A DNA stretch of 64,000 nucleotides, from the NCBI GenBank assembly GCA_963705695.1, contig CAVPKN010000043.1, positions 103-64,102 on the forward strand. The letters are read 5' to 3'. Origin of the DNA: an uncultured Chlamydiales bacterium. Lineage in GTDB: Bacteria; Chlamydiota; Chlamydiia; Chlamydiales; JAAKFR01. This document shows, piece after piece, positions 4,624-55,560 of the stretch; position 1 is the first letter of the stretch, and the number at the start of each line of letters is the position of its first letter. The notes under the pieces were generated by a model. The model was not told the origin of the DNA. It saw only the letters and a list, made by a program, of their open reading frames with translations, and searched no databases. The position numbers and the translations under genes were made by a program.

Positions 4624-4716
4624 AAAATAAATTTTAGTTCGTGAACGAGCCCGAGCCCGAGCCCGATTGCTATCTTTAATTCGGGGCACGGGCTCGGGCT
4701 CGGGCTCGTTCACGAA
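4624..4716. repeat. Palindromic GAGCCC-hexamer repeat element, family A, full copy
   Basis: The sequence is aaaataaattttagTTCGTGAACGAGCCCGAGCCCGAGCCCG, then a loop, then CGGGCTCGGGCTCGGGCTCGTTCACGAA. The arms are near-perfect inverted repeats of about 28 nt. Related copies lie at 21456, 50060 and 57261. Confidence 0.8.
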
Positions 4717-21455: not shown

Positions 21456-21488
21456 TCGGGCACGGGCGCGGGCTCGGGCTCGTTCACG
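21456..21488. repeat. family A repeat, right-arm-only partial copy
   Basis: tcgggcacgggcgcgggctcgggctcgttcacg matches the right arm of the 4624 element. No clean left arm is present. Confidence 0.5.
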
Positions 21489-48057: not shown

Positions 48058-48831
48058 TTGATTCAATTATTGAATCAAAGCGATATTATTTTCGCCATGA
48101 GCGTAAATAATGTTAATTCAAATCCAATACGATGGGATATTGCCAAAACCCCATCCTCTTCTAGCGCGGTGCCATCCCTTCCAGAGATCTCCCTCCCTGG
48201 TATTGAGGAGAGTCAATTTGTCCCTCCCCCATACAATGTCATTCTCCCCCTTGAGCAGTTAATACAAGGGAAAAACGGATCGGAGATGGCGAAACAGATC
48301 TTGCGCCACTCTCTTCGCGATGCAGCCAAGCGGATTTTTTATCAGCCACTACGCTCCTTTTTAGAGATCGTTGTGAATGCCCTTGATGCTTCCGTTGACC
48401 CTCAAAAAAGCGTAGGGAAGCATGGTTTGGGATTCATTTCGATCTTCACCTTTTTAACACACCCCGAGACGCAGGGATGTTCGATTCATATCGAGACCAC
48501 CTATGAGGAGAGCAAGGGAGTGTTTTCGAGTTATAGCATGGATTTTTTTGAAGAGAATGAAAGCTATAAAGTTCTTTTTAAAGAAAGGGAGCCGCAATCG
48601 GAAACCGGTACCAAAATCGACATCATTCCACAATCGGGCGCATTTTCTCACGAAACCTTGGAACAGCTTAATCGCTATTGCCACTATTTGCAATTCTACG
48701 AACATGGGAAAGTCGAAGTGAAATATGAAGAGGTTACTCGGCTTATTGGTGAAGGCTCTCAAATTTTAGCGTGGGTAGCTTTAAGAAAAGAGGGGCTAAG
48801 CGTATGTGATAAGGCATCCTATTACCCATAA
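48058..48831 (+). pseudogene. 5-prime remnant of a hypothetical gene, cut off by the IS terminus at 48814
   Basis: The 257-aa ORF reading frame runs into the IS inverted repeat and stops there. It contains EIVVNALDAS and GKHGLGFISIF, which are vaguely like a GHKL/sacsin-type N-box and glycine motif, but the spacing is atypical. Confidence 0.5.
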
Positions 48832-50059
48832 GTTTTGCTTGAAATCAATGGGTTACATCATCTGTTGGTAGATCTATTCGGAAAAGCAGCTTTAGGCATG
48901 GGTGGGGGAGGGGTTTGGGGAGGGGGGCGAGCAAAGCGAGGGGCCCTCCCCTAATAAAACCTCGCAAAACTCAGTTTCAATAATTAAAATCCTTCTGCAC
49001 TTAAAAATTTTTCCACCCCTCCCTGACAGATCAAAATTGATTTGGCATAGGTTCAAAGCCTCTTGATTGACTACCCTCCGAATGCCTCCCATGCTAGCGC
49101 AAAATCAACCATTCTTGACATCCCTTTCCATATCACCTTTACTCCTGGTGGACCTTCACTTTTACGATTAACATAGCCTCCTAGAACTGCAATCATTATT
49201 ATAAATTCCTTAAGGCTAGGTGCTTGCAATGGAACTGCTTCTTTTTTATATAATATCTTATATACCGACTTCCATTCTGCATCTGTAAATAGCGCTTCAC
49301 AAGATATTTCTCCATGTACTCTTCCCATCATCATTGTAAATTGTACTCTCCAGGCAAGGATCATAAAAATGGCTATCAATGCCCTCATTCGGTCTGCTGC
49401 CTGTAATTGTCTTTCTTCTATCTTACAGCCACTCTTAAGTATCTTAAAAAATATCTCTATTTCCCAACGACATAGATAGTACTGAATCACTTTTAGGGCT
49501 TCATCAAATGTACCTACCGGAAGACTTGTTATTAGTATCCATACCAAAGCCTTCTCTCCTTCAGGAGGGTGTTCTTCTACGGCCATGACTACATTCATCT
49601 TTTTTACCGTCGCTTTTTTGTTCCTTGGCTTTAATGAAACAGTGATCCCTTTCAATTGTTGTTTGACTCTTCTCTCTGCCTTCTTCTCCCTAGACGGTAT
49701 TACAAACTCTATTTCACCTAATGATGGTGCGTTATCAAGCCTGTGTCTTAATTTTTCTTTTTCTCCCTTCTCTTCCTGAAACAACAATCGATCGTATTGC
49801 GCTCTTACGATAATATCCGCAGCAGTCATACTTTCTTTTTGTTTCTCCACTTCTTCAAAAACTTCTATAATATCTCCTTCTCGATCTATAATGTTAATTA
49901 CTTTGTCTCGGACATTTTCTGTGCAATTTTGCAAGATTGTAGATAACTTTCTAGCCAACAATGGCTTTCTTTATCTGCGATAGCTGCTTTTCCGAATAGA
50001 TCTACCAACAGATGATGTAACCCATTGATTTCAAGCAAAACTTATGGGTAATAGGATGC
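48814..50059. mobile_element. IS4-family (Tn5/IS50-like) element, internally deleted, with perfect 78-bp terminal inverted repeats
   Basis: I checked base by base that 48814..48891 is the exact reverse complement of 49982..50059. The flanking 9-mers differ (tgtgataag vs aagcccgag), so there is no target-site duplication. Confidence 0.85.
49071..49961 (-). pseudogene. DDE transposase, IS4 family, N-terminally truncated
   Basis: 296 aa. IIDREGD and YYLCRWEIEIFFKILKSGCKIEERQL are colinear with Tn5 Tnp residues from about 185 onward (DREAD ... YTHRWRIEEFHKAWKTG). Only 20 bp separate the ORF start from the inverted repeat, so the DNA-binding domain and the first catalytic Asp are absent. Confidence 0.85.
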
Positions 50060-50171
50060 AAGCCCGAGCCCGTGCCCGAATTCAAGGTAGCAATCGGGCA
50101 CGGGCTCGGGCTCGTTCACGAAAATGCCTTGATCTTAGACAATTAAAAATGCTTCTAAAATTTCTTTTTTT
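50060..50171. repeat. family A repeat, copy abutting the IS, left arm truncated, with shared 3-prime tail
   Basis: The core is aagcccgagcccgtgcccg-loop-cgggcacgggctcgggctcgttcacgaa. The tail aatgccttgatcttagacaattaaaaatgcttctaaaatttctttttt is nearly identical to 57311..57357. Confidence 0.7.
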
Positions 50172-50196
50172 AATGGTCAGTGCCATAAGCTCATTG

Positions 50197-50778
50197 TTAA
50201 GTGGGTGGGCGTTCGCCAAAGTTGTTGATTCGGGCGAAGGGGACTTCGAAGCCAATGGTAATGTGGAAATCGTGCCCATTGACGAGTGGAGGTAAGCCGA
50301 GTTTCATCCTTAATTCTTCCAGCTCCTGAGATTCTACAGCGATAATCCAGCGATCCCCAGTATGGTGTTGCTCGGTGCGGTAACCGACATAGACAGCTTT
50401 ATAACTCGGGAGGATCCGAAGTTCTTTAACTTCAAACTGGAATTCCTTTCCGATCACTTCCTCTAGTCCGGTGCATTTTTCCTGATCAGTGACCACGGTA
50501 ATATGTGCCCCTTCCTCCTCGCTAAAAGAGGTTGTCGGCCTTAAATGACCATCCAAAATCAGATTGGGGAAGGTTTTGGTAATGTACTCATTCGTGACAT
50601 CGAGATAGACATAACCGTTCGATTTCATTTTCAACACCCCCACCTGAGGCAATGAGGTTGTGATCTCTAAAACATGATTTTGGGTGTGATCGACTTTATA
50701 ATCGGCATTTGCTTGCTGATAAATGGCAGCATGAAGAGTTGCGGAAAGAGAGAATAGTAAAATGAGGATTTTTTTCAT
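50197..50778 (-). CDS. secreted 2H-phosphoesterase-like protein (LigT / cyclic phosphodiesterase superfamily)
   Basis: Intact 193-aa ORF. The signal peptide is MKKILILLFSLSATLHA. Two H-x-T motifs, each followed by a hydrophobic residue, lie about 80 aa apart (GAHITVV and FHITIGF). Confidence 0.7.
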   Translation of the reverse strand: MKKILILLFSLSATLHAAIYQQANADYKVDHTQNHVLEITTSLPQVGVLKMKSNGYVYLDVTNEYITKTFPNLILDGHLRPTTSFSEEEGAHITVVTDQEKCTGLEEVIGKEFQFEVKELRILPSYKAVYVGYRTEQHHTGDRWIIAVESQELEELRMKLGLPPLVNGHDFHITIGFEVPFARINNFGERPPT

Positions 50779-50846
50779 AAATGCCTAAGTTTAAAAAGGA
50801 TATTCGTAGAAATCTACTATAAGAATTCAGTTTTGTGCAACTGTAT

Positions 50847-51989
50847 TTATTTCGAAACGCACTTTGAAGCAAGTAGGCCCAGAGCGGGGAGGTTGTCGGG
50901 TTCGTTGACTTTTTGTTCTAGGGGGACTTCGACGGAATCAATTCCTTCGTAGGTGCGAATGATCTGGTAAAAAGAGTCTCTTTGAGCGGGTTCAAATCCC
51001 GCTTGCCGGATCATGTGGAGCATATCATTATGATCGGCGCGGCAGATCCATTCAGTGGCCCGATGGACGTTCTCCTCCATGATTGTGCCTCCAAAGTCAT
51101 CGGCGCCGTAATGGAGCGCCTCAATGCCGATCGCCTTCCCTTCGCTGAACCACGAAGCTGCAATATGTTTGAAATTATCGAGATAGATCCGAGAAAAGGC
51201 CAAAATGCGGAAATACGCGTCTTTTCCCGCCCAATTCTTGACATGCCGTCTGAGAAGAGTGCGCTCCCGTTTATAGCTCCAAGGGACAAAAGCGGTAAAA
51301 CCAGAATTGCGGTCTTGATAGGTTCTGAGGGTATCGAGATGGGCCACCACATCCTCTGCCTCTTCAACGTGGCCATACATCATCGTGGCTGTCGTCAAAA
51401 AACCGACTTGATGAGCCGTGTGATGGAACTCGATCCACCCTTGAGGTCCCATTTTTTTAGGTGAGATCTCTTGCCGCACCCGCTCAGATAAAATCTCCGC
51501 TCCACCGCCAGGGATCGTCCGCAAACCTGCGTCCCATAATTTTTCTAATGCCTCTCTTAACGAGATACCAGATACACGGGCGGCATTCCAAATCTCCACG
51601 GCGCTAAAGAAATGGGGATGGAGATCGGGATAGCGGGCCAGAGCGGTTTTCACGAGTTCAACATGATAATCAATCTTTAAATCGTCATTGACCCCACCTT
51701 GGAGCAACACGGTCTTTAATCCTGCCTTTCTGGCTCGTTCCATGTGAGCCATCACCTCTTCGATCGATTTTGTGTAGGCATCTTTTGCCCCTTTATGGCG
51801 GTAAAAGGCGCAGAAGGAACAATCGATATGGCAGACATTTGTGTAGTTAGGATTGGAGTCAAGAACAAAGGTGACTCTCTGATGGGGATGTTTGGTGTTT
51901 CGGATCGCTTGGGCTTTTTGTTTGAGAAGATCAAGAGGGGCGTGCTTGAAAAGCTCAAGACCCTCATCATAATTTATACGGCGTTCCAT
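50847..51989 (-). CDS. radical SAM enzyme of the futalosine menaquinone pathway (MqnC/MqnE family; the two are not distinguished)
   Basis: 380 aa. The CxxxCxxC cluster is CHIDCSFCAF. Further motifs are TVLLQGG, PGGGAEIL and ATMMYGHVE. Confidence 0.8.
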   Translation of the reverse strand: MERRINYDEGLELFKHAPLDLLKQKAQAIRNTKHPHQRVTFVLDSNPNYTNVCHIDCSFCAFYRHKGAKDAYTKSIEEVMAHMERARKAGLKTVLLQGGVNDDLKIDYHVELVKTALARYPDLHPHFFSAVEIWNAARVSGISLREALEKLWDAGLRTIPGGGAEILSERVRQEISPKKMGPQGWIEFHHTAHQVGFLTTATMMYGHVEEAEDVVAHLDTLRTYQDRNSGFTAFVPWSYKRERTLLRRHVKNWAGKDAYFRILAFSRIYLDNFKHIAASWFSEGKAIGIEALHYGADDFGGTIMEENVHRATEWICRADHNDMLHMIRQAGFEPAQRDSFYQIIRTYEGIDSVEVPLEQKVNEPDNLPALGLLASKCVSK

Positions 51990-52081
51990 TCTAATGCCTG
52001 CATTGACGAAAAGTGCTTGAAACGATTAACATCTTCTCTTTAAACTTTTTTGTCAATTCAGTTAAAACTCTTTTCTAAAAT

Positions 52082-53776
52082 ATGAGTCAGATCATCTGCA
52101 TGGAAGAAGAACAAACATTTCCTCAAGACAATTCCCAACAAGAAGCCCTCCAACATACCCTTGACTCTACAGAGCCAGGGTTTGGCGAGCCATATACACC
52201 CTCTTCCTTGCCGGCCGACCATCCTTTTTTGAAACAGCTCGAACAACTTCCCACTAGTGAGGAGAAAATTAAAGCGTGTATCACGCTAATGCGGGAGGCT
52301 TTGGCACAGCCCTCTTCCCCTAATTTCAAGTTGTTTTGGGAGGTTCGGAAAATCTGCCTTCCTCTTTTTAAAGAGGCGTTAGCCGCTCCTGTCCGTGCGC
52401 AGCTTTGGGATGAGTACATTGAAATGACACGTGAGGGGCGTAGATTGAAGAGTCTCCTTGATGAAGAGACAGCTTTCGCGGTTGAGCAGATTGACTTAGC
52501 CATTGCTGCTTTAGAGGAGGAGATCAGAGGGTATCAAACACATCGTGATGGGATCTTAGAAAAGATCACTCCTATCGAATTTCCCATTCCGACCCACACT
52601 CTTGAACAAAGACATGATTTTTATCAAAAAACGCAAAAGCAGCTCAACCTTCTCAATCTCTATGCCGCGCGGATTAATGCTCTTCGTAAAGAATTGATCC
52701 GCACCGAAATGCGAATTCGCCAGAAAAATAAATTTTTTCAACGGCTCTCTCTGCTAGGGGACGCCATATTTCCGCTACGAAAAGACTTAATACGGGATGT
52801 GAGTGAGGCGTTTATTCAAGATGTGGCGGCTTTTGTGGAAGAGCACTTTTCAGATGCCAACTTTAATGAAGCCGAAGTGCGCCACTCTGTTTTCTTTTTC
52901 AGGGAGGAAATTAAGAATCTACAGAGCAGTGCGAAAATTTTGACATTGAACACCCATGCGTTCTCAACGACACGGGAGATGTTAAGTCGCTCATGGGACC
53001 GCCTTAAGGGTATGGAAAAGGAGCTGAAAAAAGAGTATGCTGAGCAAAGGCAGAAATCGGCAGAGAATGCGGTTCAAGTCAAAGAAAAAATAGATCAGTT
53101 TATTCAAGCCTATGAGGAGAAAAAACTCTCCAATGAGGAAGGGCTGCATGAACTCGATGAGATCAGTCGCTGGATGCGTGATATCCAGTTGACCAGAAAC
53201 GACGTCCGCTGGCTGCGTGATCTGTTGCATACGGCTCGACAACCTCTTGAGTTAAAGAAAAACGAAGCGGCTCAAGAAAAAAAACAAAAAGAAGTTGAGT
53301 TTGAGCAGGCACGAAAATGGCGTGTAGAAGAGTTTAAGAAACAATTGGATCAATTACAGAAAGCATGTGAGAGCGAATCCGTTGCTACATTGACAGACGA
53401 CTTGGAAGACGCGCGGAAAGCATTTGCGCAACTCTCTCTATCTAAAGCAGAAAAGCAGTTTTATGACCGCACTCTTAAAGCAATTCGAGATCAAATTACC
53501 GAAAAGCAGAGTCAAGCACTTCTCACCCTTTCTGTTGATGATCGGGCGGCACTCGATGATCTCGAGCAGATGCTCAACCAAAGAATGGAGCGGAGAAAAG
53601 AGATTAAGCATCAAATAGAAGAATATAGAAAAATTATTGGTGGTTCTGGACTCGATTTTGAAAAAGCAATACGATATAATGAGCTTATAGAAACCGAGAA
53701 GGAAGCGCTAGCTAAAATCGACGAAAATATCGTCGAAGTTAAAAAGAAAATAGCGGCTCTCAAAAAAACCCGCTAG
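52082..53776 (+). CDS. hypothetical coiled-coil-rich protein
   Basis: Intact 564-aa ORF, divergent from the mqn gene. It is highly charged and helical, with no TM segment. Its position corresponds to a conserved chlamydial hypothetical gene upstream of rsfS/fabF (from memory). Confidence 0.7.
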   Translation: MSQIICMEEEQTFPQDNSQQEALQHTLDSTEPGFGEPYTPSSLPADHPFLKQLEQLPTSEEKIKACITLMREALAQPSSPNFKLFWEVRKICLPLFKEALAAPVRAQLWDEYIEMTREGRRLKSLLDEETAFAVEQIDLAIAALEEEIRGYQTHRDGILEKITPIEFPIPTHTLEQRHDFYQKTQKQLNLLNLYAARINALRKELIRTEMRIRQKNKFFQRLSLLGDAIFPLRKDLIRDVSEAFIQDVAAFVEEHFSDANFNEAEVRHSVFFFREEIKNLQSSAKILTLNTHAFSTTREMLSRSWDRLKGMEKELKKEYAEQRQKSAENAVQVKEKIDQFIQAYEEKKLSNEEGLHELDEISRWMRDIQLTRNDVRWLRDLLHTARQPLELKKNEAAQEKKQKEVEFEQARKWRVEEFKKQLDQLQKACESESVATLTDDLEDARKAFAQLSLSKAEKQFYDRTLKAIRDQITEKQSQALLTLSVDDRAALDDLEQMLNQRMERRKEIKHQIEEYRKIIGGSGLDFEKAIRYNELIETEKEALAKIDENIVEVKKKIAALKKTR

Positions 53777-53843
53777 TAGTTGTAGGGCCCTCGCGCATTT
53801 CAAAGAAAAAAGAAGCGCATCCTTCTCATTCAATAGGTGATAT

Positions 53844-54464
53844 GTGATCGCTGCCTTCGATTTGGATGGGACTCTTCTCAAAAAAAATAGCAGTTTTGCT
53901 TTTTGCCGTTTTCTTTGTGAAAGAGGGGTTTTTAATAAATCAGATCTCCTCTTCTGCTCTGCTGTTTATATGCGACATATTTATGGGGGACTTTCCTTAT
54001 GGCAACTCCACCATCTTATTTTTAAAAGATTGTTTTACGGCAAGAGCATAGAGATGTTAACACCGTATCTCGATGAGTTTTTGAACGAACGGTTAGAGGC
54101 ATTATGGTACCCTCCCGCTCTTTTGCGACTGCAGGAAATGAGAGCGGGTGGTTTTGAAAGCATGATCCTCTCCAATTCTCCCCATTTTTTAGTCGTGCCG
54201 ATCGCTAAGCGAATCGGGATCGAAAAGGTTTATGCTTCTTTATATAAAAGCGATGCGCTGGGCAGGCTCTCAGGAATAGGGCCTATGATGGATGGGACCA
54301 AGAAGGCTGCGGTATTGAATGGTCTCCCATCGTCAAAAAAAATAGCGTTTTCCGACAGTCATCTCGATCTTTCGTTTCTCCAAGCTGCAGATATTGCTGT
54401 GGCGGTCAATCCGAAATCATCATTGAAGAAGATCGCCAACCGACACGGTTGGGAAATTATATGA
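53844..54464 (+). CDS. HAD-superfamily hydrolase, subfamily IB (SerB-like)
   Basis: The GTG start gives MIAAFDLDGTLL (DxDxT motif I). Later motifs are LSNSP and a C-terminal FSDSHLD. Confidence 0.75.
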   Translation: MIAAFDLDGTLLKKNSSFAFCRFLCERGVFNKSDLLFCSAVYMRHIYGGLSLWQLHHLIFKRLFYGKSIEMLTPYLDEFLNERLEALWYPPALLRLQEMRAGGFESMILSNSPHFLVVPIAKRIGIEKVYASLYKSDALGRLSGIGPMMDGTKKAAVLNGLPSSKKIAFSDSHLDLSFLQAADIAVAVNPKSSLKKIANRHGWEII

Positions 54465-54494
54465 TCTGTTGATGATTTTTTGCGCAAGGTGGGT

Positions 54495-55139
54495 ATGAAG
54501 GAATCAATAGGTCTTTTTGGGGGGACTTTTAATCCTATCCATTTTGGCCATCTCAATTTGGCTTTAGAAATGAAGGAAAAGATCGGTTTAAACCGCATTT
54601 GGTTTATCCCCTCTTTGGTTTCTCCCTTTCGGACAGGTGAATCAGGGATCCCCCCTCAACATCGGCTTAAAATGCTCGAATTGGCTTGCGATGAACTTCC
54701 CCATTTTGAGGTATGTACAATCGAATTACAACGCCCCCCCCCTTCTTTCACAGTTGATACAGTAAGAGAGATTTTAACAAAGTATCCGCAACACCATTTT
54801 TATTTGATTTTTGGTGAGGATAGTTTGATCCATTTCTCGAAATGGAAAGAGCCCTTAGAAATTATCCGCCTCCTCCCTTTGCTGATCGGGTCTCGAATGC
54901 ATTCCGAATTGATAAAAAGATTACCTGACCTTGGTTTTGCAGAGGAAATACGGGGAGCCATCGAGCGGGGAGTGGTTTTGACACGTCAGTTGGAAATCAG
55001 CGCTACAGAGATTAGAGATCGTATCAAAAAAAATCTATATTGTGGCCACTTTTTACCTGGTAAAGTGCTGGACTATATATATGAAAATCAATTATATTCT
55101 TTTGTAAAAAATGAGAAAAGAAGCAGCGCATCTTCTTAG
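54495..55139 (+). CDS. nadD: nicotinate-nucleotide adenylyltransferase
   Basis: GLFGGTFNPIHFGHLNLA is present, with a later ISATEIR. The start is set at the ATG at 54495. Confidence 0.9.
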   Translation: MKESIGLFGGTFNPIHFGHLNLALEMKEKIGLNRIWFIPSLVSPFRTGESGIPPQHRLKMLELACDELPHFEVCTIELQRPPPSFTVDTVREILTKYPQHHFYLIFGEDSLIHFSKWKEPLEIIRLLPLLIGSRMHSELIKRLPDLGFAEEIRGAIERGVVLTRQLEISATEIRDRIKKNLYCGHFLPGKVLDYIYENQLYSFVKNEKRSSASS

Positions 55140-55197
55140 CCCTCTATAAAATATTTTTTTTCGTTCCTTACTTAGGAATGTTGCCGCTGTCGAAAAA

Positions 55198-55560
55198 ATG
55201 AAAAAAGATAATTTAGAGAGTATCAATGTTATTGGGCAAATTCTTTTCGATAAAAAGGGTTTTAATATCCTTGCCCTTGATGTCCGTGGCATTTCAACCC
55301 TGACCGACTATTTTTTGATAGCAGAAGGTAATGTTGATAAACATGTGGTCGCATTAGCGAAAGAGATTATTGAGAAATTAAAAAAAGAGGGGGATGTGCC
55401 AGCACACGTCGAGGGATTGGATCAAGGAGAGTGGGTGGTGATTGATTATTTGGATATTGTGATCCATCTATTCAAACCTGGTCTGCGCGATAAATACCGT
55501 TTGGAAGAATTATGGCACGAAGGGGAAATCATCGATCTTAAATTTGGTGGCTATGAATAA
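55198..55560 (+). CDS. rsfS: ribosomal silencing factor RsfS
   Basis: DYFLIAEGNVDKHVVALAKEI...WVVIDYLDIVIHLF..RDKYRLEELW fits RsfS. Confidence 0.9.
   Translation: MKKDNLESINVIGQILFDKKGFNILALDVRGISTLTDYFLIAEGNVDKHVVALAKEIIEKLKKEGDVPAHVEGLDQGEWVVIDYLDIVIHLFKPGLRDKYRLEELWHEGEIIDLKFGGYE

What the first reader, a model, noticed from the sequence alone, without database searches (positions are those of the whole stretch)
50197..50778. Signal-peptide-bearing 2H-phosphoesterase in an obligate intracellular lineage: candidate degrader of 2-prime-5-prime or cyclic-phosphate nucleotide signals
The intact 193-aa ORF has a cleavable-looking signal peptide (MKKILILLFSLSATLHA). It also has two H-x-T-hydrophobic motifs (GAHITVV, FHITIGF) about 80 residues apart, which is the diagnostic pair of the 2H phosphoesterase superfamily (LigT, CPDases, 2-prime-5-prime phosphodiesterases). 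Bacterial LigT proteins are normally cytoplasmic, so an exported 2H enzyme is unusual. Some characterised members of the superfamily cleave 2-prime-5-prime oligoadenylate to blunt OAS/RNase L-type immunity. By inference only, an exported chlamydial version could act on host or periplasmic 2-prime-5-prime-linked or 2-prime,3-prime-cyclic nucleotides. The gene lies in a non-syntenic insert next to an IS element, and a second paralog lies at 31411..32026. This pattern fits an accessory effector-type gene better than a housekeeping one.
Basis: partly seen in the sequence, partly recalled or inferred. Interest (0 to 1): 0.65.

Follow-up and report, generated by a model that had tools for sequence, protein, structure and literature searches.

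The report
Exported chlamydial 2H phosphoesterase gene
This gene from an uncultured chlamydia encodes a small two-histidine (2H) phosphoesterase with an export signal; it belongs to a large, uncharacterised family of such exported enzymes in environmental chlamydiae, and nothing yet shows that it attacks host immune nucleotides.

Summary
ORF 50197..50778 (-) is intact and encodes 193 aa. It has a Sec-type signal-peptide-like N-terminus and two HxT motifs (H92, H172). It scores 55.7 bits against Pfam PF22547 '2H-SAK' (cut-off 27).

Both histidines are invariant in 104 homologues. AlphaFold models (pLDDT 82-86) show a duplicated hairpin-helix-HxT-strand layout. Their best structural matches are 2H enzymes (phage phosphodiesterase, Acb1, Usb1), but the matches are weak (E about 0.02).

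The export signal is the rule in this family, not an oddity. It appears in 22/24 orthologues and 103/117 close relatives, against 5/41 control ORFs. Every relative that carries an organism name is chlamydial or labelled 'Verrucomicrobia bacterium'. One, from Criblamydia sequanensis, is already annotated 'conserved putative secreted protein'.

The second copy (31411..32026) is real but broken by a 1-nt frameshift in an A6 run. The neighbouring IS (48814..50059) is a defective later insertion that does not contain the gene. GC content is native. Gene neighbourhoods vary between genomes.

Most likely this is an exported cyclic-phosphate/phosphodiester hydrolase acting on nucleotides or short RNAs outside the cytoplasm. 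The substrate is unknown, and the 2-5A/cGAMP-degrading effector idea remains untested. This is a moderately interesting new variant of a known kind.

The parts
50197..50778 (-). Intact gene for a 193-aa exported 2H-SAK-family phosphoesterase (stop codon included)
   Evidence: ORF listing. Pfam PF22547 at 55.7 bits against cut-off 27. The identical protein is encoded on an independently assembled Logan contig, L003, which is 99.986% identical to the window over 7.1 kb.
50728..50778 (-). Predicted Sec (SPase I) signal peptide, residues 1-17: MKKILILLFSLSATLHA, cleaved before AIYQQ
   Evidence: Sequence. The hydrophobic N-terminus is conserved in character but not in sequence across orthologues, followed by a conserved [AS]-[GA]-I-[YHN]-[QE] junction. 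Heuristic scores: 22/24 orthologues versus 5/41 control ORFs. SignalP was not available.
50494..50511 (-). First catalytic motif, G90-A-H92-I-T94-V
   Evidence: Read codon by codon. G, A, H and I are invariant or nearly invariant. The motif lies in a beta-strand with pLDDT about 89-94.
50251..50268 (-). Second catalytic motif, F171-H172-I-T174-I-G
   Evidence: Read codon by codon. H172 is invariant in 104 sequences. The motif lies in a beta-strand with pLDDT about 90-94.
31411..32026 (-). Second 2H-SAK copy (35% identical), interrupted by one frameshift. The repaired product is 204 aa, with signal peptide MTLFSKKMFLTVCLAVLAPLSLCA and both HxT motifs.
31870..31875 (-). A6 homopolymer where the paralog's reading frame breaks. 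Removing one A restores the frame.
48814..50059 (.). Defective IS4/Tn5-like insertion sequence adjacent to, but not containing, the 2H gene. It has perfect 78-nt terminal inverted repeats and a 296-aa transposase remnant at 49071..49961 (-).
   Evidence: Inverted repeat I1. Pfam Dimer_Tnp_Tn5 plus partial DDE_Tnp_1. Single copy in the window. It cuts the + strand ORF 48058..48831.
50061..50112 (.). GC-rich 19-bp-stem hairpin between the IS end and the 2H stop codon; one copy of a dispersed palindromic repeat

Best explanation
The gene encodes a catalytically competent 2H (two-histidine) phosphoesterase of the Pfam 2H-SAK family. It is made as a precursor with a Sec signal peptide and released, after cleavage near A17/A18, into the chlamydial periplasm, possibly going further.

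Shown:
- Family membership.
- An invariant HxT pair.
- A duplicated hairpin-helix-HxT-strand model.
- A conserved signal-peptide-like N-terminus.
- Membership of a large, multi-paralog expansion in Chlamydiota that includes two- and three-domain tandem forms.

Inferred from the established chemistry of 2H enzymes: the two histidines act as a general acid/base pair on a phosphate adjacent to a ribose 2'-OH. The enzyme would either open 2',3'-cyclic phosphates or cut 2'-5'/3'-5' bonds through such an intermediate.

Inferred physiological role (weakest step): processing of 2',3'-cyclic-phosphate nucleotides or short RNA fragments outside the bacterial cytoplasm. Metal-independent RNases produce such molecules in the host vacuole or periplasm. 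The purpose would be scavenging or clearance in a nucleotide-parasitic bacterium.

My confidence that it is an exported active 2H enzyme is about 0.8. My confidence in the scavenging/clearance role is about 0.35.
For: - Pfam 2H-SAK at E 7.7e-15 for this protein, and 30/31 family members hit the same model.
- H92 and H172 are invariant, and G90, A91, I93, F171, I173, G176 and R157 nearly so.
- AlphaFold2 gives pLDDT 82.3 for the full-length protein and 85.9 / pTM 0.81 for the mature protein. Each HxT motif lies in a strand that follows a hairpin and a helix.
- The top four PDB matches are all 2H enzymes: phage BCSR5 phosphodiesterase, Acb1 twice, and Usb1. At least seven of the top 15 viral-library matches are annotated as 2H-type enzymes.
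- Signal-peptide-like N-termini occur in 22/24 orthologues, 103/117 close relatives and 99/146 diverse representatives, against 5/41 control ORFs.
- A Criblamydia sequanensis member is annotated 'conserved putative secreted protein'.
- The exhaustive profile search finds 1370 family representatives. Most of the 150 listed (123 of the 146 new to this search) are 230 aa or shorter.
- An extracytoplasmic RNase T2 -> 2',3'-cNMP -> cyclic phosphodiesterase salvage scheme is proposed for plant vacuoles, with 2H proteins named as candidates (PMC12369478).
Against: - No substrate evidence of any kind.
- No RNase T2 motif in the window.
- No conserved gene neighbourhood that would tie the family to salvage.
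- Foldseek matches are weak (best E 0.02, TM at most 0.47 in PDB). No solved structure or sequence-detectable PDB relative exists.
- The signal peptide was judged by inspection and a home-made heuristic, not by SignalP.
- Chlamydial nucleotide transporters import NTPs rather than NMPs (general knowledge), so the benefit of making 2'/3'-NMPs is not obvious.
Confidence: 0.45

Rival explanations
1. Host-directed immune antagonist. After Sec export the enzyme leaves the bacterium, for example by type II secretion or vesicles. In the vacuole lumen or host cytosol it destroys nucleotide second messengers such as 2'-5' oligoadenylates or cyclic di-/oligonucleotides, in the manner of phage Acb1 or coronavirus NS2.
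For: - The closest solved structures include Acb1 (7t27: prob 0.99, E 0.024) and a phage phosphodiesterase.
- The family is expanded, multi-copy, variable in genomic location and prone to decay, as effector families often are.
- The window also carries a eukaryote-like F-box protein.
- The best viral-library match is a protein of an amoeba giant virus (Orpheovirus, E 7.6e-5).
- From general knowledge, Sec-dependent chlamydial proteins such as CPAF do reach the host cytosol.
Against: - The similarity to Acb1 is only fold-level (TM 0.39-0.47, 10-11% identity).
- No PADLOC hit, and no link to defence or counter-defence genes.
- Nothing shows secretion beyond the periplasm.
- The likely hosts are protists, in which OAS/RNase L or cGAS-STING-type pathways are not established (general knowledge).
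- No conserved neighbourhood.
Confidence: 0.2
2. Exported RNA-end processing enzyme or ribonuclease. The 2H domain works on RNA 3' ends, trimming like Usb1 or healing 2',3'-cyclic ends like a Swiss-Army-Knife (SAK) repair domain. The RNAs would be host or extracellular, not mononucleotides.
For: - The Pfam family is named for RNA-repair proteins. Distant members sit in phage contexts beside a CCA-adding-type nucleotidyltransferase (identified by eye from the sequence, not by a domain search) and an AAA ATPase.
- One signal-peptide-bearing relative (P0045) fuses the domain to a P-loop AAA_33 kinase, the classic healing pair.
- Usb1 is among the top structural matches.
- Tandem two- and three-domain forms would suit polymeric substrates.
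Against: - This protein is a single domain with no kinase, ligase or phosphatase partner nearby.
- ATP-dependent partners would not work in the periplasm.
- No ligase was seen in any chlamydial context examined.
Confidence: 0.12
3. Ordinary cytoplasmic RNA 2',3'-cyclic phosphodiesterase (LigT/ThpR-like or SAK-like housekeeping repair). On this view the hydrophobic N-terminus is not a functional signal peptide.
For: - All characterised bacterial 2H enzymes are cytoplasmic (general knowledge; PMC4201822 and PMC5283653, listed).
- Faint LigT_PEase / 2_5_RNA_ligase2 hits appear in one or two family members.
Against: - The N-terminal n-h-c pattern is conserved in character across hundreds of members while its sequence drifts, which is typical of signal peptides.
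- Some members have lipobox-like sites instead.
- There is no NCBIfam ThpR hit, and hhalign against ThpR is insignificant.
- The 12-residue hydrophobic core is too short for a membrane anchor.
Confidence: 0.07
4. Non-enzymatic or decaying gene: a nucleotide-binding protein without turnover, or a family on its way to loss in this genome.
For: - The sister copy in the same window is frameshifted, and the adjacent penicillin-amidase gene is fragmented.
- An IS has landed 138 nt from the stop codon.
Against: - The gene at 50197..50778 is intact, and the identical protein is encoded in an independent assembly.
- Both catalytic histidines and their flanks are invariant across the family, including all repeats of the tandem forms.
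Confidence: 0.05

Closest known systems
Pfam PF22547 '2H-SAK' (2H phosphoesterase domain of Swiss-Army-Knife RNA-repair proteins; described, from my memory, by Burroughs & Aravind 2016, NAR 44:8525, which was not readable here)
   Same: The sequence matches well above the curated cut-off (55.7 versus 27 bits). It has the same two HxT motifs and the same domain length.
   Different: This is a stand-alone domain behind a signal peptide, in a chlamydial chromosome. It has no HAD phosphatase, kinase or ligase partner and no RNA-repair neighbourhood. The phage-context members are only 26-37% identical.
Phage Acb1 (anti-CBASS 2H nuclease, PDB 7t26/7t27) and the Burkholderia phage BCSR5 phosphodiesterase (PDB 9q2g/9q2y)
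   Same: These are the best solved structural neighbours. They are small single-domain 2H enzymes of similar size.
   Different: The match is weak (E 0.02-0.05, TM 0.3-0.47, 10-16% identity). The phage proteins are cytoplasmic and lack signal peptides. No functional link to cyclic-oligonucleotide signalling was found.
E. coli ThpR/LigT (RNA 2',3'-cyclic phosphodiesterase)
   Same: Same superfamily chemistry (two HxT motifs). The internal duplication is visible: motif 1 here aligns to motif 2 of ThpR.
   Different: There is no significant sequence relationship (hhalign E 0.17; no NCBIfam or LigT Pfam hit). ThpR is cytoplasmic.
Criblamydia sequanensis CDR33855.1 / WP_053331802.1, 'conserved putative secreted protein' (P0071)
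   Same: It belongs to the same family (profile E 1.1e-34), is of similar size (200 aa) and has a signal or lipoprotein-type N-terminus. It comes from a cultivable amoeba-associated chlamydia.
   Different: It is a distant paralog/orthologue (about 30% identity). It is annotated only as secreted, not as a phosphoesterase, and is uncharacterised.
Periplasmic CpdB and extracellular CdnP-type nucleotidases (general knowledge)
   Same: They do the same proposed job outside the cytoplasm: hydrolysing 2',3'-cyclic nucleotides or cyclic dinucleotides for salvage or immune evasion.
   Different: They have unrelated folds (metallophosphoesterase / 5'-nucleotidase, DHH-DHHA1) and are metal-dependent. 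This is analogy only, not homology.

Membership tests
2H phosphoesterase superfamily | Two H-x-[ST]-x motifs, each after a hydrophobic residue, in the two halves of one domain | tested here: met
   GAHITV (H92) and FHITIG (H172) are present. Both histidines are invariant in 104 homologues.
2H phosphoesterase superfamily | Duplicated alpha+beta fold, with the two HxT strands facing one cleft | tested here: inconclusive
   The models (pLDDT 82-86) show hairpin-helix-HxT-strand twice, and the top PDB/BFVD matches are 2H enzymes.
2H phosphoesterase superfamily | His-dependent, metal-independent hydrolysis of a cyclic phosphate or 2'-5'/3'-5' phosphodiester | not testable with these tools
   Needs an enzyme assay with H92A/H172A controls.
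Pfam PF22547 2H-SAK | Score above the curated gathering threshold | tested here: met
   55.7 bits against 27 for this protein, and 57.1 bits for the paralog. 30/31 relatives also pass.
Swiss-Army-Knife RNA-repair proteins (architecture) | 2H domain combined or co-located with HAD phosphatase, kinase or ligase RNA-repair modules | tested here: not met
   Single domain plus signal peptide. Its neighbours are a CofH/MqnC-type radical SAM gene and an IS. No repair genes occur in six other chlamydial contexts. Only rare relatives carry a kinase (P0045).
LigT/ThpR family | Sequence membership (NCBIfam/Pfam LigT models) and a cytoplasmic location | tested here: not met
   No NCBIfam hit. No LigT_PEase hit for this protein. 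hhalign against E. coli ThpR gives E 0.17. A signal peptide is present.
Acb1 / viral 2',5'-phosphodiesterases | Specific structural or sequence similarity and activity on cyclic oligonucleotides or 2-5A | tested here: inconclusive
   Acb1 7t27 matches at E 0.024, prob 0.99, TM 0.39/0.47, 10% identity. No family-level sequence hit. Activity is not testable here.
Sec (SPase I) secretory proteins | Positively charged n-region, 7-15-residue hydrophobic h-region, small residue at -1 of the c-region, with the pattern conserved in orthologues | tested here: met
   K2K3, then I4-L15, then A17 followed by A18. Conserved in 22/24 orthologues, against 5/41 controls. This rests on a heuristic only; SignalP and experimental cleavage were not available.

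The most novel reading that the evidence does not exclude
Environmental Chlamydiota carry a lineage-specific, multi-paralog family of Sec-exported 2H phosphodiesterases, with one to three catalytic domains. These would be delivered into the inclusion lumen or host cytosol to destroy host nucleotide signals (2'-5'-linked, cyclic di-/oligonucleotide or 2',3'-cNMP alarmones). That would make them the first bacterial exported 2H-type immune antagonists, analogous to phage Acb1 and coronavirus NS2.
Probability: 0.15. Interest if true: 0.8.

Novelty: new variant of a known kind. Interest (0 to 1): 0.42.

Why it matters
All characterised 2H phosphoesterases known to me work inside cells or viruses, on RNA ends or nucleotide messengers. 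In the literature I could search, I found no description of a 2H enzyme with a signal peptide and none from chlamydiae.

This gene belongs to a family of more than a thousand sequence clusters. Every member that carries an organism name is chlamydial or labelled 'Verrucomicrobia bacterium', and most members carry export signals. The family has no solved structure and no assayed member.

If active outside the cytoplasm, these enzymes bear on one of two questions. One is how nucleotide-parasitic bacteria exploit RNA breakdown products in the host vacuole. The other is how they blunt nucleotide-based host signalling.

A cultivable carrier, Criblamydia sequanensis, makes both questions experimentally approachable. 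If the enzyme turns out to be a plain periplasmic cyclic phosphodiesterase, the finding is a useful annotation upgrade for hundreds of 'hypothetical proteins' and little more.

Tried and rejected
- **PDB by sequence.** phmmer and a family-profile hmmsearch against PDB sequences found nothing relevant. The best hits were ribosomal eS10 and PDH E1-beta at E about 0.4.
- **Other libraries.** NCBIfam and PADLOC gave no hits. PHROGs gave only an unknown-function family, phrog_12204.
- **ThpR comparison.** hhalign of the family profile against a single E. coli ThpR sequence was insignificant. It aligned motif 1 to ThpR motif 2, so it could not confirm the motif correspondence.
- **Second model.** A model of the mature protein with a deeper alignment raised confidence (pTM 0.81) but did not improve the Foldseek E-values.
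- **Phages and plasmids.** tblastn against annotated phage and plasmid collections found no match.
- **Gene neighbourhoods.** I clustered 292 flanking ORFs from 37 loci. No neighbour was conserved for the chlamydial clade; the only recurrent sets were phage-type clusters around distant members and a pyruvate-dehydrogenase neighbour seen in three loci.
- **RNase T2.** A motif scan of the window was negative.
- **Repaired paralog.** An exact-sequence look-up, meant to decide pseudogene versus sequencing error, found nothing.
- **Literature.** No paper combines chlamydiae with 2H phosphoesterases or names '2H-SAK'. The papers that define the 2H superfamily and SAK proteins (PMC137960, PMC5062991) are not held.
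- **IS cargo idea rejected.** The gene is not cargo of the IS, because the 78-nt inverted repeats close at 50059, before the gene.
- **Recent transfer rejected.** There is no compositional signature of recent horizontal transfer; GC is 0.42-0.46, the same as the flanks.
Full report

Yes. The minus-strand ORF 50197..50778 is intact and encodes 193 residues beginning MKKILILLFSLSATLHA. Reading the DNA codon by codon places GAHITV (H92) at 50494..50511 and FHITIG (H172) at 50251..50268, exactly 80 residues apart. A third HxT (H138-H-T) lies in a poorly conserved hairpin and is not part of the family signature.

The pattern is not a chance pair. Pfam PF22547 '2H-SAK' matches residues 58-178 at E 7.7e-15 and 55.7 bits, against a curated cut-off of 27. 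An independently assembled Logan contig (L003) is 99.986% identical to the window over 7.1 kb, encodes the identical protein, and stops 42 nt past the stop codon, just before the repeat and IS region.

**2. The family**

A word-index search found 24 close relatives: 22 full-length proteins (187-206 aa, 55-71% identical) plus two truncated ones. All but one (P0022, which looks truncated at the N-terminus) have a hydrophobic N-terminus.

An exhaustive profile search of 1.84 billion cluster representatives found 1370 members at E<=1e-3 and 910 at E<=1e-10. Of the 150 best that were listed, most are 230 aa or shorter. There are also two-domain proteins of about 350-372 aa and three-domain proteins (P0032, P0033) in which every repeat keeps both HxT motifs.

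In alignments of 31, 68 and 104 sequences:
- H92 is invariant in all three; H172 is invariant in the 104-sequence alignment and at least 90% conserved in the other two.
- G90, A91, I93, I173 and R157 are invariant or at least 90% conserved in all three.
- F171 and G176 reach that level in two of the three.

That is the behaviour of an active site under selection.

**3. Fold**

AlphaFold2 gave pLDDT 82.3 for the full-length protein. For the mature protein with the 104-sequence alignment it gave pLDDT 85.9 and pTM 0.81. The secondary structure is a duplicated unit of beta-hairpin, helix, then the HxT strand. The motif strands are in high-confidence blocks.

Foldseek against the PDB returns 2H enzymes in the first four places for the mature-protein model: the Burkholderia phage BCSR5 phosphodiesterase, phage Acb1 (apo and product complex) and human Usb1. 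For the full-length model they take four of the first five places. None is better than E 0.02, and TM-scores are 0.25-0.47.

Against predicted viral structures the best match is an Orpheovirus protein (E 7.6e-5, TM 0.52). It is followed by phage proteins annotated as RNA 2',3'-cyclic phosphodiesterase, 2'-5' RNA ligase superfamily, 'Swiss Army Knife 2H phosphoesterase domain-containing protein' and Acb1.

Sequence searches of the PDB find nothing, so the family has no solved representative.

**4. Signal peptide**

The N-terminus has two lysines and a 12-residue uncharged core (I4-L15). Alanine is at position 17, immediately before a conserved mature start. In orthologues the junction reads [small]-L-x-[AS]-[GA]-I-[YHN]-[QE]. 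The core is too short for a membrane anchor.

A crude test asked for an uncharged stretch of at least 8 residues, at least 60% strongly hydrophobic, starting within the first 25 residues. Results:

| Set | Flagged |
|---|---|
| Close orthologues | 22/24 |
| Chlamydia-proximal profile hits | 103/117 |
| Diverse family representatives | 99/146 |
| Other window ORFs >=150 aa (control) | 5/41 |

At least three of the five control hits look like integral membrane proteins from their N-terminal sequences. Some family members carry lipobox-like sites instead.

Export is therefore a family trait rather than a peculiarity of this gene. SignalP was not available, so this remains a strong inference.

**5. 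Who carries it**

The window's FabF has only chlamydial MAG proteins among its best organism-named hits, at 81% identity or below; the closest hit of any kind is 85% identical. At about 70% identity there are also MAGs labelled 'Verrucomicrobia bacterium'. The window also encodes an F-box protein.

Every organism-named relative of the 2H protein is from Chlamydiales, Chlamydiia, Simkaniaceae or Simkania MAGs, or from two MAGs labelled 'Verrucomicrobia bacterium'. Because MAGs with that label also appear among the window's best FabF hits, ranked with chlamydiae, the label may be a misassignment.

One representative, P0071, is Criblamydia sequanensis CDR33855.1. Its genome's authors annotated it 'conserved putative secreted protein'.

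Several paralogs can occur per genome. P0021 and P0216 lie on one 2.29-Mb contig, and the window has two copies.

More distant members (26-37% identity) sit in phage-like contexts. They lie beside what looks, from its sequence, like a CCA-adding-type nucleotidyltransferase (not confirmed by a domain search) and an AAA ATPase, and on five IMG/VR contigs. This fits the RNA-repair origin implied by the Pfam name. Single-sequence tblastn against annotated phages and plasmids found nothing.

**6. Surroundings**

The gene lies 68 nt downstream of, and on the same strand as, a CofH/MqnC-type radical SAM gene (50847..51989). No sigma-70-like promoter was detected between them.

Downstream of the stop codon lies a 19-bp-stem GC-rich hairpin (50061..50112). 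It belongs to a dispersed palindromic repeat.

Next comes an IS bounded by perfect 78-nt inverted repeats (48814..50059). Its Tn5/IS4-like transposase is only 296 aa, against about 477 aa for full-length Tn5 transposase (from memory). It matches only the C-terminal half of the DDE_Tnp_1 model, so the N-terminal part appears to be missing. The IS interrupts a plus-strand ORF (48058..48831) and does not include the 2H gene.

GC content across the gene (0.42-0.46) equals that of the flanks. Orthologues in two other chlamydial assemblies have different neighbours: SnoaL and AbiE genes in L001; TPR, DUF5399 and transposases in L002. Four further family members likewise have unrelated neighbours.

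So the location is variable, which fits an accessory gene. The IS itself is not evidence that the gene was recently brought in.

**7. The paralog**

The region 31411..32026 contains a 53-aa ORF with a signal peptide and a 135-aa ORF with both HxT motifs. They are in different frames and meet at an A6 run (31870..31875). Deleting one A yields a 204-aa full-length family member that is 44% identical to P0074.

Whether this is a true pseudogene or a homopolymer assembly error cannot be decided here:
- The two assemblies of this organism differ by one 1-bp indel in 7.1 kb.
- The neighbouring penicillin-amidase gene is also in pieces.
- A +1 recoding event at AAA-AGA is formally possible but unsupported.

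**8. What it most likely does**

By family membership and invariant catalytic residues, this is a metal-independent phosphoesterase that uses two histidines on a phosphate next to a ribose 2'-OH (established 2H chemistry; PMC4201822 and PMC5283653, listed).

Because of the signal peptide, it should act in the periplasm or beyond. The most economical role is hydrolysis of 2',3'-cyclic-phosphate nucleotides or RNA fragments, which metal-independent RNases generate in the host vacuole or periplasm. This is analogous to the RNase T2 -> cNMP -> cyclic phosphodiesterase scheme proposed for plant vacuoles (PMC12369478) and to periplasmic CpdB (general knowledge).

I give about 0.8 to 'exported active 2H enzyme' and about 0.35 to this particular role.

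Acb1 is among the closest structures, and the family looks effector-like. But the similarity is only fold-level, no defence-related association was found, and secretion beyond the periplasm is unproven.

An RNA-end-processing role has some support from a relative that fuses signal peptide, 2H-SAK and a P-loop kinase (P0045). The cytoplasmic LigT-like reading is disfavoured.

**9. Comparison and novelty**

The protein passes the membership test for the 2H superfamily motifs and for Pfam 2H-SAK. It fails the tests for LigT/ThpR and for the multi-domain SAK repair architecture. The test for Acb1-type enzymes is inconclusive.

Database pipelines already tag these proteins with PF22547, and one relative is annotated as secreted. 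So the gene is not new as a sequence family.

What I could not find described is the combination: a large clade of Sec-exported 2H enzymes, stand-alone or in tandem, whose named members are chlamydial. No paper in the searchable library combines chlamydiae with 2H phosphoesterases.

I rate it a new variant of a known kind, with interest 0.42. It gives a sound, testable annotation and a plausible but unproven effector story.

Noticed in passing
window 48814..50059: Defective IS4/Tn5-like insertion sequence with perfect 78-nt terminal inverted repeats. Its transposase ORF is only 296 aa and appears to lack the N-terminal part. It is a single copy in the window and truncates the + strand ORF 48058..48831, whose product has no Pfam hit.
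   Followed up: partly
window 4647-4707, 21456-21481, 50060-50113, 57282-57301: A dispersed GC-rich palindromic repeat (GAGCCCGAGCCCGTGCCCGA and its complement) gives 8 matches where 0 are expected by chance. At 50061-50112 the two arms form a 19-bp-stem hairpin, and paired or overlapping copies occur at the other sites. It may be a REP-like element or terminator family.
   Followed up: partly
window 30195..30512 and 30522..30848 (+): Two tandem small paralogous ORFs (105 and 108 aa) share an SRSVVPQAP motif followed by a long two-lobed hydrophobic segment. This is reminiscent of chlamydial inclusion-membrane (Inc) proteins. Neither has a Pfam hit.
   Followed up: no
window 32708..34793 (+): A penicillin-amidase-like gene appears split into several overlapping ORFs, right next to the frameshifted 2H paralog. 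Either this region is decaying or the assembly has homopolymer indels.
   Followed up: partly
window 58882..59616 (-): A 244-aa protein with a eukaryote-type F-box domain (E 6.7e-7), typical of effectors in amoeba-associated bacteria.
   Followed up: no
L004 6001-8278; proteins P0176 and P0045: In one chlamydial lineage a two-domain 2H-SAK gene is followed by a Sulfotransfer_1 gene. Another family member (P0176) fuses signal peptide, Sulfotransfer_5 and 2H-SAK. A third (P0045) fuses signal peptide, 2H-SAK and an AAA_33 P-loop kinase. This may hint at a nucleotide-cofactor-related role.
   Followed up: partly
L003 versus window 50155..57273: The Logan assembly of run ERR10755948 differs from the window by a single 1-bp indel in 7.1 kb. 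The indel appears to fall in the nadD-like gene, which is split in L003 and intact in the window. Indel errors therefore exist in at least one assembly of this organism.
   Followed up: partly
proteins P0032, P0033, P0179-P0216: Many chlamydial relatives are tandem arrays of two or three complete 2H-SAK domains behind one signal peptide, and every repeat keeps both HxT motifs.
   Followed up: partly
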